Shown: positions 8,154-13,273 of the stretch, piece after piece
How positions within the stretch are numbered: position 1 is the first letter of the stretch
Layout: each line of letters begins with the position of its first letter
NCBI GenBank assembly: GCA_048884965.1
Contig: JBHLQH010000001.1
Location: forward strand, 96,001 to 160,000
From: Candidatus Thorarchaeota archaeon
Lineage (GTDB): Archaea > Asgardarchaeota > Thorarchaeia > Thorarchaeales > Thorarchaeaceae
Direction of reading: 5' to 3'
Length of the DNA: 64,000 bases
Position numbers and translations under genes: made by a program
The notes under the pieces: generated by a model
The model's database searches: none
Told to the model about the DNA's origin: nothing
What the model saw: the letters and a program-made list of their open reading frames with translations, nothing else

Positions 8154-11100
8154 CTAGAGAGGGATGTCTATCCCTGCATTCTTCAACATTGCCACTGCAA
8201 AGTTCTTGACGCTCTCAAGAGGATCATCAAAGTTGAAATCAAATGCCAGATTGTATGTTTGCCCAATAAACACGATATCCGCATCGAGAGATAGGATTCG
8301 ACTATTCACATCACTGAAGTCAGCTGCAAAGCTTGCTTCTGTGATATTGAATACTCCTCCCAAACCCCAGTCGACAACGAACTGTGTTAGTGACGAGAAT
8401 CCTGAAATCACCTCTCTAGCTATGACCACAGCTCCTTCAGCTATTTTCAATGCAGCCCATGCAGCGACTCTTGCTGTCACAAGTGCGATAACACGTGGGT
8501 CTAGAGCTGGATTTGCTATTACAACTACCGCCTCTGCGATTTTCAGTGCTGTCTTTGCAATTTCAAGAACTGCCCAGGCTGCAGCACGCGCAATTTGTAA
8601 TGCTCCAATCGTCACATAGTGAGCAGTTATCTCAGCAGAACGCCAACCAACTTCATAGACCAGTCTGGTCCATTTCCACGTCTTCTCCCACCAAGGTGCA
8701 GAATTATACCATTTGTTCCACCATGCTATTTCAGAGTTGAGCGTGTTTATCCTAGATTGAATAGATCGTATCTGTGAATCGATCTTGTTTACTTCATTTT
8801 GGGCAGCCGTTACTGCATTTTGGGCGTCCTTCAAGCCAGCGACTATTGCGTCCTGTTCCTTCTGCACGATTGCTATCATGTTGGATATCTGGATGTCCCA
8901 GCTTTCCACATCATGTTGTGCTGCGACTAATGCGTTCTGGGCGTCATTTAGTCCAGATACAGCTGCGTCTGTTATATCTTTGATAAAATTCAGGATATTT
9001 TCACGCACATAGTCCAGCAGATCATTCTTCATGTAGGCTCTCAAATAGACCCCGTCTCCTGAGCCTTTGAGAAGCTCGTCCAGACTAGGACCAGATACTT
9101 CTAGAGAGGCCTCAAACAAATCAAAGATTTTTGCCATTGTCAACAGGTAGAATCCATCTTCATCGATGTTGATATCCACCAAACCTTTCATTAGTCCTCC
9201 GAGGATGCTTATCGCTCCGGATACGACAAGCTGAAGATTGCTTGATGACCGTCGTAGATCAAGGTCAAACATTGCGCCTTTCTTTGTGTCACTCGCGTGA
9301 GTCAGCTTGATCAATTCAAACCCATTAATTGAGATGTCAATTGGATCTATTGCAGCTCTGATGTAAATTCCATCATCAGGATCCAATAGCGCTTCTGCAA
9401 AGATATTGAAATCGAAGATATCCAGTAGAGCTCTCATATGAAATCCTGCATTGTAGTTTACTCCTCCAACTATAGTATCCATTAGAGCATAGTGGAACTT
9501 TACATCACGCATTTCTATTCCGTCCAAGAATGCGAAGAACTGTTCAGGAATAATATCTGCAACAACGAAGAGGAGTGACCTGACAACTGTGCCAATATTC
9601 AGCTGATTGAACTCAATACTTAGCAACTGAAGTGTTGGTCCCTTCAGACTGATAGCTCCACTTCCAGTGAAGGAGCCAATAGTCACATCTGCCATGACAC
9701 CAAACTCTGGCATGAAGGGCACGCTAACACCTATGTCCACTCCTAATCTGTTCACGGTTATTCCTTTAACACCCATAGGATCTTTCCATTCACCAGTCGT
9801 GTACGCTGATAGCTTTAGCGAAGGATCTGGATCGACCTCTAGGATGAAAGCACCCTTCAGAGGGAGATATTCTTCACCAATCCGCAAATCCATGTCCGAT
9901 TCCAATCGAATACCAAAACCTTCAGATGCATATCTGATTCCGAAGAGGAATCCTTTGAGTATGATGACATCCTCTAGGTTGATATTCAACTTAGAACTTG
10001 CTAGGAATTCAAGCGAGAACGGACTTGTCGCTATAATTCCTGCGACACTCAGAGAATCCACATTCAATAGTTTCGTAACGAGGTCATCTTGGAAAGTCGC
10101 TTGGAAGTTGATTCCTTTCTTGATCTCTCCAGCTACTTTCACTTTTCTGAGTAGATCCATTGGCACCTTTAAATCTGCATTCGACAGAACTAATGCTTCA
10201 TTGGTCAACGAATCCGAAACTGGATTAGGAATCGCAGGTACTTTCAGCAAACTGAGAGCCTTTTTGATTCCCATAGGTGTCGCCATAAGAGGTGCCCACT
10301 TTCCTGTTTCAGGATCTTTGTGAATTACGAATTCAATCACGGTTGCTTCGGTCGTAATCGTTGCTGAGAATAAAGGAATGCCAGGAGCGATTCTTAATTC
10401 GACATTTGTTATCTTCAATGCTCCAATCTCTGACAGACCCGGAGGTACTGGAAGGCTGAGAGCTTGAAGGCAATCTTCTGCAAAAGTCCCTAGATTAACT
10501 GATATTGGGGCACTGGCCGTCAACTCAAAATCACCGGGGAATTTACATCCGATGATTAAGGGTAGGTTTCCTACATTGAAAGTTCCGTGCATGTCAACTG
10601 AGAAGACTCTTACGTTTTCATCACTCAGTTTTTGAGTGATATTGATTTTAACATCGCTGATTGAGAAATTGAATGTGGGTATGGCAAAACCACTATCCGA
10701 TTCAATGTCAATGGCAAATTCTTTGGTCCTGAGATTATATGAAAGGGACAAATCGACTTCAAGATCTGATGGCGGAGAAAAGTTACTTGAGAGGTCTTGG
10801 AGAGATGCTATTCCAAGGTCGCTCACGATTGATTGGAAATCCAAAGTGGTCTTCGCTTCGAGTATTTGATCAGTATCTTTAGGAGCGATCGAGTAATCAA
10901 TCACTGTTGAGCCTACTTTTATTTTCCCATCAAGCATAATTACTGTTTGAGGACTTGGGACAGTGGTTGTTTTGGGATCACGCTTAATCGTAATCTCTGG
11001 AGTTAGGAATATGTTTGTATTCTCCACAATCTCCCAGTCACCATCAGTAGTTGCTTTCAATGTGTACGACCCTGTACTAGGCACATATTCCAAGTTTATG

Positions 11101-12550: not shown

Positions 12551-13273
12551 CTACTTACCCCCTTTCTTCATCGGACTCTTGTCTGTTCGGCTTTGTTGCT
12601 TCTTCTTTCGTTCTGCTTTTACCTTTGAAATGGTTTTTTCCATCTCGCCCCTACTGTCATCATATTCCTTGTCTATCCTCTTCCTTTCCTTAAGGAAACT
12701 AATCATTCTAGGGTCTTTCTCGATTGGCATATCACGGAAACCTGATCTAATTGACTCTCTCTCAATTCTAAGCTGTTCCAAGCGTCCTCGCTGAGAAAGT
12801 TCCTGCTGTATCAAACTCGGAATTTCTTGTTCAAGCAATCCAATATCTTTGGTAATCTGTTGAACTTTTTCTTCAAACTTCTTCCTTGCAGACTCCAATT
12901 TAGCAGCATCTAGTTCTACAGGATTCTCGAGGTCGACATCCTTGTGAAGCGAGTGACGGAATTCTTCTTCCGCTCTTGCAATCTCTGCTCTGCGAATCTT
13001 ACTCCGCAGTTTAAAATCATCTAATTTCTGTTTAGATGCTTTCCAGTCCCTCTCAGCATTGTGAATTTCTCTTTCCACTCTCGGTAATGCTCGTCTGGGA
13101 CCTTTTCTTTCACGCCTTAGACTTTCTTCAACATCGACCGATAAAATATCAAATCGCTTCTTTCTTTCTTTTGCATGGGCGAACGTCTCTCTGACTTTGA
13201 TATACCTCTCATCAGATTGTATATACTTGGGAATTTCAAAGTCGTCTGGTTCCCCCGTTTTACCACGACTCAT
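12551..13273 (-). CDS. Highly charged coiled-coil protein, co-transcribed with the 1460-aa gene
   Basis: K/E/R-rich heptads, AGGAG RBS, 14-bp gap to the next gene. Confidence 0.8.
   Translation of the reverse strand: MSRGKTGEPDDFEIPKYIQSDERYIKVRETFAHAKERKKRFDILSVDVEESLRRERKGPRRALPRVEREIHNAERDWKASKQKLDDFKLRSKIRRAEIARAEEEFRHSLHKDVDLENPVELDAAKLESARKKFEEKVQQITKDIGLLEQEIPSLIQQELSQRGRLEQLRIERESIRSGFRDMPIEKDPRMISFLKERKRIDKEYDDSRGEMEKTISKVKAERKKKQQSRTDKSPMKKGGK

What the first reader, a model, noticed from the sequence alone, without database searches (positions are those of the whole stretch)
8154..13273. Unexplained two-gene system: 1460-aa repeating beta-module protein plus coiled-coil partner
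Seen: five ~115-aa units (starting near aa 190, 304, 420, 535, 649) of alternating-hydrophobic beta strands with one amphipathic helix (LDF..L.SD.GL..V.DF). These are followed by more beta-rich sequence, a coiled coil, a Trp-rich turn (WWNKWYNSAPWWEKTWKW) and a long Ala-rich hydrophobic hairpin. There is no signal peptide. Inference: the strand-helix periodicity recalls repeating beta-groove bridge-like lipid transfer proteins (AsmA/TamB/VPS13/ATG2), which would be notable in an Asgard-like archaeon. An alternative is a membrane-inserting toxin or effector.
Basis: partly seen in the sequence, partly recalled or inferred. Interest (0 to 1): 0.75.

Follow-up and report, generated by a model that had tools for sequence, protein, structure and literature searches.

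The report
Giant beta-sheet protein with hairpin partner
A Thorarchaeota two-gene operon encodes a 1460-residue protein, predicted to be one long one-sided beta-sheet ending in a tryptophan-tipped coiled-coil hairpin, plus a small copy of that hairpin predicted to bind it; the pair belongs to a large family found in bacteria and archaea that nobody has named, and it most likely handles lipids or membranes.

Summary
ORF 8154-12536 (-) has three clear ~115-aa repeats, a weaker fourth and a marginal fifth. More beta sequence follows, then a long coiled-coil hairpin with an 8-Trp tip. No signal peptide is present, and a co-oriented 240-aa gene lies 14 nt upstream.

New findings:
- The protein belongs to a large unannotated family: 539 clusters at 50% identity, mostly bacterial, with no Pfam, NCBIfam or PDB sequence match.
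- AlphaFold2 models are confident (pLDDT 88 and 81) and show a continuous antiparallel beta-meander with a helix pair every 6-7 strands, not closed domains.
- No solved structure matches the beta body. The only named nearest models in the ESM Atlas are YhdP, TamB, YdbH and AsmA (TM 0.42-0.47).
- The small partner is a charged paralog of the hairpin (hhalign 98.8%, E 9e-17). It is predicted to bind the hairpin's return arm (ipSAE 0.71, best control 0.00).
- The pairing recurs in Lokiarchaeota and Flammeovirgaceae.
- Real matches occur in only 4 of 301 Asgard genomes sampled.

The lipid-groove idea is partly supported by shape only. Sequence membership in the RBG or AsmA families is not supported. 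Function is inferred. Other first readers noted this same stretch of the same genome.

The parts
12551..13273 (-). Partner gene, 240 aa (P0002). A charged, stand-alone paralog of the large protein's coiled-coil hairpin. Conserved ER..GP and P-I-E-x-D-P-R motifs; the DPR is at aa 187-189 (nt 12707-12715).
   Evidence: hhalign of the partner family (A4) against the large-protein family (A1): Prob 98.8%, E 8.8e-17, 179 columns. This maps P0002 aa 20-212 onto P0001 aa 1192-1371. HMMER with the partner profile hits the P0001 hairpin at E 1.2e-9. Orthologous partners lie next to the large gene in L001/L002, L009, L005 and L017.
8154..12536 (-). Large gene, 1460 aa (P0001). Starts 14 nt after the partner's stop codon, behind GGAGGTG.
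   Evidence: No Pfam, NCBIfam or PDB sequence match beyond coiled-coil noise. Single copy in the genome.
12312..12536 (-). N-terminal segment, aa 1-75, not modelled. Its opening (M-x-L..L...I......G-x-L-x-L) is shared with many relatives that lack a signal peptide.
   Evidence: N-termini listed. The short Thor/Sif forms keep aa 1-100.
10935..12311 (-). aa 76-534: a possible degenerate unit (76-189) and three strong ~115-aa repeats (190, 304, 420). This block (about aa 100-570) is missing in the ~1000-aa Thor/Sif relatives, so the repeat number varies.
   Evidence: BLASTP of units. phmmer/hmmsearch domain maps of P0007, P0009, P0011 and P0012.
10248..10934 (-). aa 535-763: repeats 4 and 5. Each is 3 strands, a pair of short helices, then 3-4 strands.
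   Evidence: sequence. AF2 secondary structure in two independent models.
9027..10247 (-). aa 764-1170: family-wide conserved beta body. A continuous antiparallel meander with one hydrophobic face.
   Evidence: 539 cluster representatives match aa 760-1460. AF2 pLDDT is mostly 80-94. Strand amphipathicity. Conserved residues are Gly, Leu, Trp, Phe and Asp, with no catalytic-looking set.
8703..9026 (-). aa 1171-1278: outbound arm of the hairpin, one 108-residue helix. It contains a 39-aa internal duplication (GLNDAQNAL at 1195, GLKDAQNAV at 1234).
8670..8723 (-). aa 1272-1289: Trp-rich, basic tip of the hairpin. An aromatic/basic tip is conserved in relatives.
   Evidence: Relatives' sequences.
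8367..8684 (-). aa 1285-1390: Ala-rich amphipathic return arm. Two helices are broken at the P-A-L-D-P-R motif (aa 1343-1348, nt 8493-8510). The 39-aa duplication is mirrored here (1318 and 1357). aa 1282-1340 is the predicted docking surface for the partner.
   Evidence: complex prediction interface.
8157..8351 (-). aa 1396-1460: three closing beta strands and a terminal helix (conserved FNF-x-DP end). Their sequence position after the hairpin suggests that they lead the chain back to the beta body; no coordinates were available to check this.
   Evidence: secondary structure; consensus.

Best explanation
The two genes form an operon of a previously undescribed protein family found in both bacteria and archaea.

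The large protein is non-enzymatic. It is predicted to consist of about 1100 residues of continuous antiparallel beta-meander with one hydrophobic face. Its overall shape is an open, curved sheet or groove, like the AsmA/TamB/YhdP lipid bridges. At the far end is a modular antiparallel coiled-coil hairpin about 16 nm long, with an aromatic and basic tip.

Proposed mechanism (inferred, not shown):
- The Trp/Lys tip docks at a membrane interface.
- The hydrophobic face of the sheet binds or conducts lipids or other hydrophobic cargo.
- The small charged paralog of the hairpin packs against the hydrophobic return arm (aa 1282-1340). This would keep the arm soluble or regulate its engagement.

Shown here (as computed predictions or statistics): the architecture, the family, the partner's homology to the hairpin, and the predicted binding. 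Inferred only: lipid or membrane handling.
For: Architecture:
- AF2 models have pLDDT 80.8 (aa 560-1460) and 87.8 with pTM 0.81 (aa 420-880).
- 45 of 48 strands are hydrophobic on one face only (mean Kyte-Doolittle 2.3 against -0.9).

Shape:
- The only named families among the 30 nearest ESM Atlas models are YhdP, TamB/AsmA, YdbH and AsmA (TM by query 0.42-0.47; 294-329 residues aligned).
- The top PDB Foldseek hit of the longer model is the ApoB100 beta-belt (E 6.8e-8).
- Local matches include a lipovitellin lipid-cavity sheet (Z 6.9, 100 aa, 3.8 A) and Ups1/PRELID1 (Z 5.8-5.9).

Family:
- 539 representatives match at E <= 1e-3 and 265 at E <= 1e-10.
- Conserved columns are structural residues only.

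Partner:
- hhalign 98.8%, E 8.8e-17; HMMER E 1.2e-9.
- The Thor partner matches the Flammeovirgaceae partner at BLASTP E 2e-6.
- The partner is adjacent to the large gene in Thor, Loki-type and Flammeovirgaceae loci.
- Complex prediction supports binding but does not show it: score 0.71, best of 3 controls 0.00. In the tool's calibration this mark was reached by 58 of 80 solved complexes and 2 of 110 mismatched pairs. These counts hold only roughly because my own alignments were used. Runs agree in at least 81% of contacts, and partner pLDDT is at least 81.

Tip: the aromatic/basic tip is conserved across distant relatives.
Against: - No coordinates could be inspected, so an open lipid-lined groove is not demonstrated.
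- All Atlas TM scores to AsmA-like models are under 0.5.
- Solved structures give only non-specific meander or barrel matches (best Z 8.2-8.3, with rmsd above 20 A).
- There is no sequence or profile link to any lipid-transfer family.
- The protein has no membrane anchor and no signal peptide, and it sits in an organism with a single membrane (from general knowledge of Asgard cells). What would be bridged is therefore unclear.
- The family is patchy and very variable at the N-terminus. Some members carry about 10 Laminin_G_3 domains and some carry signal peptides. That pattern is more typical of accessory, surface or conflict proteins than of core lipid homeostasis.
- One-sided strands also occur in beta-sandwiches and solenoids.
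Confidence: 0.4

Rival explanations
1. Two-component membrane-damaging toxin or effector. The hairpin inserts into a target membrane, as in alpha-helical pore formers. The beta body and, in relatives, the LamG arrays provide targeting. The charged paralog acts as chaperone, antitoxin or the soluble pore component, as in tripartite Ahl/Smh-type toxins (that parallel is from my own knowledge of those toxins).
For: - In the Thor clade the return arm is borderline hydrophobic (Kyte-Doolittle 1.65-1.91), and this is exactly the surface the partner is predicted to cover.
- The hairpin superposes on the SmhB pore, Tc-toxin channel helices, IpaB and colicin Ia at Z about 11.
- One relative has a weak Bacillus_HBL hit (E 0.023).
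- Distribution is patchy.
- Some relatives carry signal peptides or about 10 Laminin_G_3 domains.
Against: - Z about 11 is within the noise the tool states for long helices.
- Bacterial relatives have no hydrophobic peak in the hairpin at all, so insertion cannot be the family-wide mechanism.
- The return arm carries a charge about every 7 residues.
- The window protein has no signal peptide, and no secretion-related family was detected among the neighbouring genes scanned.
- No PADLOC or toxin family matches.
Confidence: 0.22
2. Structural scaffold or tether. A rigid beta rod plus a length-adjustable coiled-coil stalk acts as a spacer, adhesin or cytoskeleton-like element, with no lipid cargo. 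The partner extends or bundles the stalk.
For: - Both arms of the hairpin grow by matched 39-aa units, and relatives carry 1-4 units. That looks like a ruler.
- The number of beta repeats also varies between relatives.
- Weak structural matches include single-layer sheets such as OspA and the CPAP G-box.
- Some relatives carry LamG arrays.
Against: A sheet with one consistently hydrophobic face over about 1000 residues needs a hydrophobic partner surface. No oligomerisation or filament evidence was obtained, and no conserved cytoskeletal neighbours were seen across the loci.
Confidence: 0.18
3. Anti-virus or other conflict system of an undescribed type, in which the large protein senses or executes membrane disruption and the partner regulates it.
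For: Sparse, accessory-like distribution (4 of 301 Asgard genomes, none of 5 genomes of the same genus). Two-gene module with a paralogous regulator-like partner. One actinobacterial-looking locus has a PemK toxin next door.
Against: No PADLOC match except coiled-coil noise. Neighbourhoods are housekeeping-like and not conserved. No nuclease, ATPase or sensor domains.
Confidence: 0.08

Closest known systems
Bacterial AsmA-like proteins (YhdP, TamB, YdbH, AsmA)
   Same: Very long, mostly beta proteins of over 1000 residues, built as an elongated curved antiparallel sheet with one hydrophobic face. They are the only named families among the nearest ESM Atlas models (TM by query 0.42-0.47).
   Different: - No Pfam or profile similarity.
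- No N-terminal membrane anchor.
- No DUF490/TamB C-terminal domain.
- The repeat has a helix pair in mid-unit.
- Ends in a coiled-coil hairpin and has a paralogous hairpin partner.
- Occurs in archaea, and its distribution is patchy rather than core.
Eukaryotic RBG bridge-like lipid transfer proteins (VPS13, ATG2, BLTP1-3)
   Same: A repeating beta-meander unit with a helical element, a one-sided hydrophobic sheet, and an N-terminal helix preceding the first strands.
   Different: The RBG unit is 5 strands plus a sixth crossing element (PMC7613979). Here it is 3 strands, 2 helices, then 3-4 strands. There is no Chorein_N, VPS13 or ATG2 family match. No solved RBG structure appeared in the listed structure matches.
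ApoB100 beta-belt and lipovitellin (large lipid transfer protein) sheets
   Same: Long amphipathic antiparallel sheet. ApoB100 is the top Foldseek hit for the aa 560-1460 model (E 6.8e-8, prob 0.99). A lipovitellin sheet matches locally (Z 6.9).
   Different: Global TM is 0.09. There is no vitellogenin-type N-terminal domain and no sequence relation.
Tripartite and bipartite alpha-helical pore-forming toxins (Ahl/Smh, Hbl/Nhe, YaxAB)
   Same: Paralogous helical-hairpin components, one more hydrophobic and one soluble. The hairpin superposes on the SmhB pore at Z 11.2.
   Different: That Z is within noise for helices. There is no family match. Here the hairpin is appended to a roughly 1100-residue beta body, and in most relatives it is not hydrophobic.

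Membership tests
RBG superfamily (VPS13/ATG2/BLTP) | Repeat unit of a 5-stranded beta meander plus a sixth element (helix/loop) that crosses back (PMC7613979) | tested here: not met
   DSSP of two AF2 models gives 3 strands, 2 short helices, then 3-4 strands per ~115-aa unit.
RBG superfamily (VPS13/ATG2/BLTP) | Continuous open groove lined by hydrophobic side chains | tested here: inconclusive
   45 of 48 strands are hydrophobic on one face only. Atlas shape matches to AsmA-like models have TM 0.42-0.47.
RBG superfamily (VPS13/ATG2/BLTP) | Sequence or profile relation to Chorein_N, VPS13, ATG2 or BLTP families | tested here: not met
   No such Pfam hit at E <= 1 for P0001 or for 65 relatives.
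RBG superfamily (VPS13/ATG2/BLTP) | Lipid binding and transfer between membranes | not testable with these tools
   Needs biochemistry.
AsmA-like clan (AsmA, TamB, YhdP, YdbH) | Match to a clan Pfam model or profile | tested here: not met
   No hit. The genome has no YhdP or TamB family match. hhalign of A3 against E. coli YhdP and TamB gives prob 0.3% and 0.2%. This is a weak test because the targets were single sequences.
AsmA-like clan (AsmA, TamB, YhdP, YdbH) | N-terminal transmembrane anchor or signal sequence | tested here: not met
   No hydrophobic peak in the first 100 residues of P0001. Some ~1000-aa relatives do start with signal-peptide-like segments.
AsmA-like clan (AsmA, TamB, YhdP, YdbH) | Elongated beta-taco fold | tested here: inconclusive
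   TM by query 0.43-0.47, 294-329 residues aligned, rmsd 6.2-6.5 A to predicted AsmA, YhdP, TamB and YdbH models. No solved AsmA-like chain appears among the listed PDB matches.
Alpha-helical pore-forming toxins (ClyA/Hbl/Smh/YaxAB) | Family HMM match | tested here: not met
   None for P0001. One relative hits Bacillus_HBL at E 0.023, far below the cut-off.
Alpha-helical pore-forming toxins (ClyA/Hbl/Smh/YaxAB) | Hydrophobic head or hairpin able to span a bilayer | tested here: inconclusive
   Kyte-Doolittle peak of 1.65-1.91 in the Thor clade only, interrupted by charges. No peak in bacterial relatives.
Large lipid transfer proteins (ApoB/vitellogenin) | Vitellogenin-type N-terminal domain plus amphipathic lipid-binding sheets | tested here: not met
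   No Vitellogenin_N or related Pfam match. There is only a sheet-level resemblance.

The most novel reading that the evidence does not exclude
This is the founding example of a new class of soluble prokaryotic bridge- or belt-like lipid carriers. They would be independent of, or only very remotely related to, the AsmA/RBG lineage. They would attach to membranes through a Trp-tipped coiled-coil hairpin regulated by a hairpin paralog. The Asgard copies (Thor, Sif, Loki) form one clade, so bulk-lipid-handling machinery with a groove-type architecture would already exist in the archaeal relatives of eukaryotes.
Probability: 0.2. Interest if true: 0.85.

Novelty: new variant of a known kind. Interest (0 to 1): 0.6.

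Why it matters
Bridge-like lipid transporters are known from diderm bacteria (AsmA-like) and eukaryotes (VPS13, ATG2, BLTPs). A 2025 preprint on Asgard lipid transfer proteins treats VPS13-class bridges as possibly later additions to shuttle-type carriers (PMC12139934). My literature searches found no report of a groove-type protein in archaea.

Here a confidently modelled, very long one-sided beta sheet of similar overall shape turns up in Asgard archaea and many bacteria. It has no anchor, a new repeat unit, a membrane-probe-like hairpin and a dedicated paralogous partner.

If it handles lipids, it widens the known solutions for bulk lipid transport and gives a testable Asgard case. If it is a toxin or scaffold, it is still a family of more than 500 clusters of giant proteins with no annotation. 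Cultured carriers such as Saccharophagus degradans make it experimentally approachable.

Tried and rejected
- **Family and PDB sequence searches.** Pfam, NCBIfam, PADLOC and PDB sequence searches gave only coiled-coil noise.
- **Self-BLAST.** BLAST of the whole protein against itself returned only the identity hit, so the units had to be searched separately.
- **N-terminal profile search.** A profile search with the N-terminal alignment was wasted by the tool's length window and returned only two known sequences.
- **Longer model (aa 560-1460) against PDB.** The VIA-align lists were filled by non-specific helical hairpins at Z about 11-12.
- **Beta-only model (aa 420-880) against PDB and BFVD.** Nothing reached E <= 1e-3. 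The best hits were porins and Tom40-type barrels with rmsd above 14 A. No VPS13, ATG2, TamB or YhdP chain was among the rows listed.
- **Language-model feature search of aa 190-1170.** This gave only sub-threshold leads, such as DUF6603 at score 0.82.
- **hhalign against E. coli YhdP and TamB.** No relation was found. An attempt to deepen the TamB profile returned only relatives of 87-99% identity, so no deep profile-profile test was possible.
- **Partner against its own neighbour.** BLASTP of P0002 against the P0001 hairpin was not significant. The relation needed profiles.
- **Literature.** Searches for RBG or bridge-like proteins in archaea, and for accession numbers of named relatives, found nothing on this family.
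- **Rejected idea: actin/profilin scaffold is Asgard.** I first took the actin and profilin genes beside a LamG-type relative to mean an Asgard scaffold. A protein of the same clade is named Haliangium sp., and the actin is only 42% identical to this genome's actin. A myxobacterial origin is therefore more likely.
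Full report
**1. What is there**

The region holds two co-oriented ORFs on the minus strand.
- The first is a 240-aa gene (12551-13273; P0002).
- The second is a 1460-aa gene (8154-12536; P0001), which starts 14 nt downstream, behind GGAGGTG.
- The flanking genes are divergent upstream and convergent downstream, so this is a two-gene unit.
- GC content matches the surroundings.
- The window's genome is a 4.09-Mb Asgard assembly (95.7% complete). 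It carries one copy of the large gene.
- The closest homologs are named Thorarchaeota and Sifarchaeia MAG proteins.

**2. The observation**

Searching each proposed unit against the protein confirms the repeats.
- Units at aa 190, 304 and 420 are 40-44% identical (E 1e-24 to 5e-31).
- The unit at 535 is weaker (28%, E 6e-9).
- The unit at 649 and a possible unit at 76 are marginal.
- The Trp-rich motif is at aa 1272-1289, with 8 Trp in 36 residues.
- There is no N-terminal hydrophobic segment.

The 'hydrophobic hairpin' needs qualifying. Its Kyte-Doolittle 19-residue maximum is 1.65 and it has a charge roughly every seven residues. The equivalent arm in bacterial relatives shows no hydrophobic peak at all.

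**3. A large, unnamed family**

- Pfam, NCBIfam, PADLOC and PDB sequence searches give only coiled-coil noise.
- An exhaustive HMMER search with aa 760-1460 finds 539 cluster representatives at E <= 1e-3 and 265 at E <= 1e-10. Lengths range from 200 to 3134 aa.
- Named members come from Flammeovirgaceae, Lyngbya aestuarii, Saccharophagus degradans, Candidatus Electrothrix laxa, Haliangium sp., Trichodesmium and Lokiarchaeota. All are 'hypothetical' or mislabelled from the coiled coil.

The N-terminal part varies:
- Many members start like ours.
- A group of about 1000 aa begins with signal-peptide-like segments.
- A roughly 3000-aa group carries about ten Laminin_G_3 domains.
- Thor/Sif relatives of about 1000 aa lack aa 100-570, which is the block of strong repeats.

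Conserved columns are Gly, Leu, Trp, Phe and Asp, with no catalytic-looking set.

**4. Fold**

Two AlphaFold2 models were made with alignments of 69 and 65 family sequences.
- aa 560-1460: mean pLDDT 80.8, pTM 0.55.
- aa 420-880: mean pLDDT 87.8, pTM 0.81.

Both show an uninterrupted antiparallel meander. Strands have a median length of about 9-10 residues, up to 14. Each ~115-aa unit is 3 strands, 2 helices, then 3-4 strands.

After aa 1170 come four elements:
- a 108-residue helix;
- the Trp tip;
- two return helices, broken at P-A-L-D-P-R;
- three strands and a final helix.

The position of these last strands, directly after the hairpin, suggests that they lead the chain back to the beta body. 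I could not check this without coordinates.

Of 48 modelled strands, 45 are hydrophobic on one face only (mean Kyte-Doolittle 2.3 against -0.9).

Both hairpin arms contain a 39-aa duplication in register (1195/1234 and 1318/1357). Bacterial relatives have more such units. The stalk length is therefore modular.

**5. Structural neighbours**

Solved structures:
- The beta-only model has no match at Foldseek E <= 1e-3.
- VIA-align gives at best Z 8.2-8.3, to Tom40/porin/TamA barrels with rmsd above 20 A. That is meander-level likeness only.
- Short local matches include a lipovitellin sheet (Z 6.9, 100 aa, 3.8 A) and Ups1/PRELID1 (Z 5.8-5.9).
- Viral models give nothing.
- The longer model's top Foldseek hit is the ApoB100 beta-belt (E 6.8e-8, prob 0.99, but TM 0.09).
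- Its VIA lists are filled by generic helical hairpins at Z 11-12, which the tool itself rates as noise for helices.

Predicted models:
- The ESM Atlas shape search is the informative result.
- Among the 30 nearest models, the only family names are AsmA, YhdP, TamB_N/TamB/AsmA and YdbH-like.
- TM by query is 0.42-0.47, over 294-329 aligned residues at 6.2-6.5 A.
- Unnamed actinobacterial clusters score TM 0.53-0.54.

These are sub-0.5 scores between predicted models. I read them as 'same general shape: an elongated curved one-sided sheet', not as proof of a shared fold. I could not inspect coordinates, so an open groove is inferred, not seen.

**6. Membership**

- No AsmA-clan or VPS13/ATG2 Pfam model matches P0001 or any of 65 relatives at E <= 1.
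- The genome has no YhdP or TamB family hit.
- hhalign of the family profile against E. coli YhdP and TamB gives under 1% probability. The targets were single sequences, so this is a weak test.
- The RBG unit is defined as five strands plus a sixth crossing element (PMC7613979). That is not what the models show.
- There is no membrane anchor.

The protein therefore may work like a groove protein, but it is not a demonstrable member of RBG or AsmA-like families.

**7. The partner**

The 240-aa protein is conserved next to the large gene in:
- another Thor MAG (L001/L002);
- a Loki-type Asgard genome (L009);
- two Flammeovirgaceae genomes (L005, L017);
- weakly, a further locus where it lies downstream (L003).

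It was not seen in five other loci, some of which have short flanks.

Evidence that it is a hairpin paralog:
- The Thor partner aligns with the Flammeovirgaceae partner (E 2e-6 over 159 aa).
- That partner aligns colinearly with its own neighbour's hairpin, from the coiled coil through W-K-x-W-Y to P-I-E-x-D-P-R (E 5e-7).
- At profile level, partner family against large-protein family gives Prob 98.8%, E 8.8e-17 over 179 columns. This maps P0002 aa 20-212 onto P0001 aa 1192-1371.
- A plain HMMER profile of five partners hits the P0001 hairpin at E 1.2e-9.

The partner is thus a free-standing, highly charged paralog of the hairpin.

The complex prediction supports binding but does not show it.
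- The score is 0.71, against 0.00 for the best of three controls.
- In the tool's calibration this mark was reached by 58 of 80 solved complexes and 2 of 110 mismatched pairs. These counts hold only roughly here, because my own alignments were used.
- Runs agree in at least 81% of contacts, and partner pLDDT is at least 81.
- The interface on the large protein is aa 1282-1340, the Trp-proximal, most hydrophobic return helix.

**8. Distribution and history**

- A profile search of 301 Asgard genomes found full matches in only four, including the window's own. None of five genomes of the same genus had one.
- The other 14 'hits' cover only the coiled coil.
- In a FastTree of 70 C-terminal modules, the Thor/Sif sequences form a clade (SH-like 100). 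This clade is sister (SH-like 91) to a group containing the Loki-type genome's protein and a protein named Lokiarchaeota.
- The known Asgard rows therefore sit on one side of one branch.
- The tree is unrooted, made by a quick method, and many rows have deviant composition.
- I therefore claim only that the Asgard copies look like one lineage that is sparsely retained or exchanged within Asgard. I do not infer a direction of transfer.

**9. Interpretation**

Best-supported reading (confidence about 0.4):
- The large protein is non-enzymatic, with a very long one-sided beta sheet of AsmA-like overall shape. It binds lipid or another hydrophobic surface.
- A membrane-interface probe (the aromatic/basic tip) sits on a modular stalk.
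- A paralogous hairpin caps the hydrophobic arm.

Rivals:
- a two-component membrane-damaging toxin (0.22);
- a structural ruler or tether (0.18);
- a conflict system (0.08).

The variable N-termini, LamG arrays, signal-peptide forms and patchiness pull towards the rivals. The one-sided sheet over about 1000 residues, and the fact that only AsmA-like families appear among named neighbours, pull towards lipid handling.

**10. Novelty and verdict**

I found no description of this family in the searched literature. A 2025 preprint on Asgard START-type lipid carriers treats VPS13-class bridge-like proteins as possibly later additions (PMC12139934).

I rate the finding as a new variant of a known kind (groove/belt-type beta-sheet proteins) with real uncertainty about function, and give it interest 0.6. 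The same stretch was also noted by other first readers of this genome. Their notes on the DPR echo and the 39-aa duplications agree with what I measured.

Noticed in passing
L019:4211-15405: On a 60-kb metagenome scaffold, a 3134-aa LamG-rich member of this family (P0140) lies directly after an actin gene (PF00022) and a profilin gene (PF00235), on the same strand. A protein of the same clade is named Haliangium sp., and the actin is only 42% identical to this Thor genome's actin. The scaffold is therefore probably myxobacterial. From memory, Haliangium is known for a eukaryote-like actin.
   Followed up: partly
window 6137-8079; L001:15582-17224: A thiolase-fold gene followed by a DUF35/OB-fold (ChsH2-like) gene lies within about 3.5 kb downstream of the operon, both in the window and in another Thor MAG. 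The orientation relative to the operon differs between the two.
   Followed up: no
G213:C1:980069-980425 (Asgard genome, not fetched): A weak coiled-coil match falls inside an open frame of 10,103 aa in a single-contig Asgard genome. This is a giant ORF of unknown nature.
   Followed up: no
L020:1747-2058: In an actinobacteria-like contig, a PemK-family toxin gene and a 78-aa ORF sit immediately upstream of the family member P0015.
   Followed up: no
L003:6638-7996: In the locus of the 2016-aa relative P0016, the upstream gene (452 aa, 4-nt gap) has no family hit on record. Its sequence contains an H-x-H-x-D-H-like motif that recalls metallo-beta-lactamase-type hydrolases. The hairpin-like partner there lies downstream instead (P0019, with N-D-P-R-M).
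   Followed up: no
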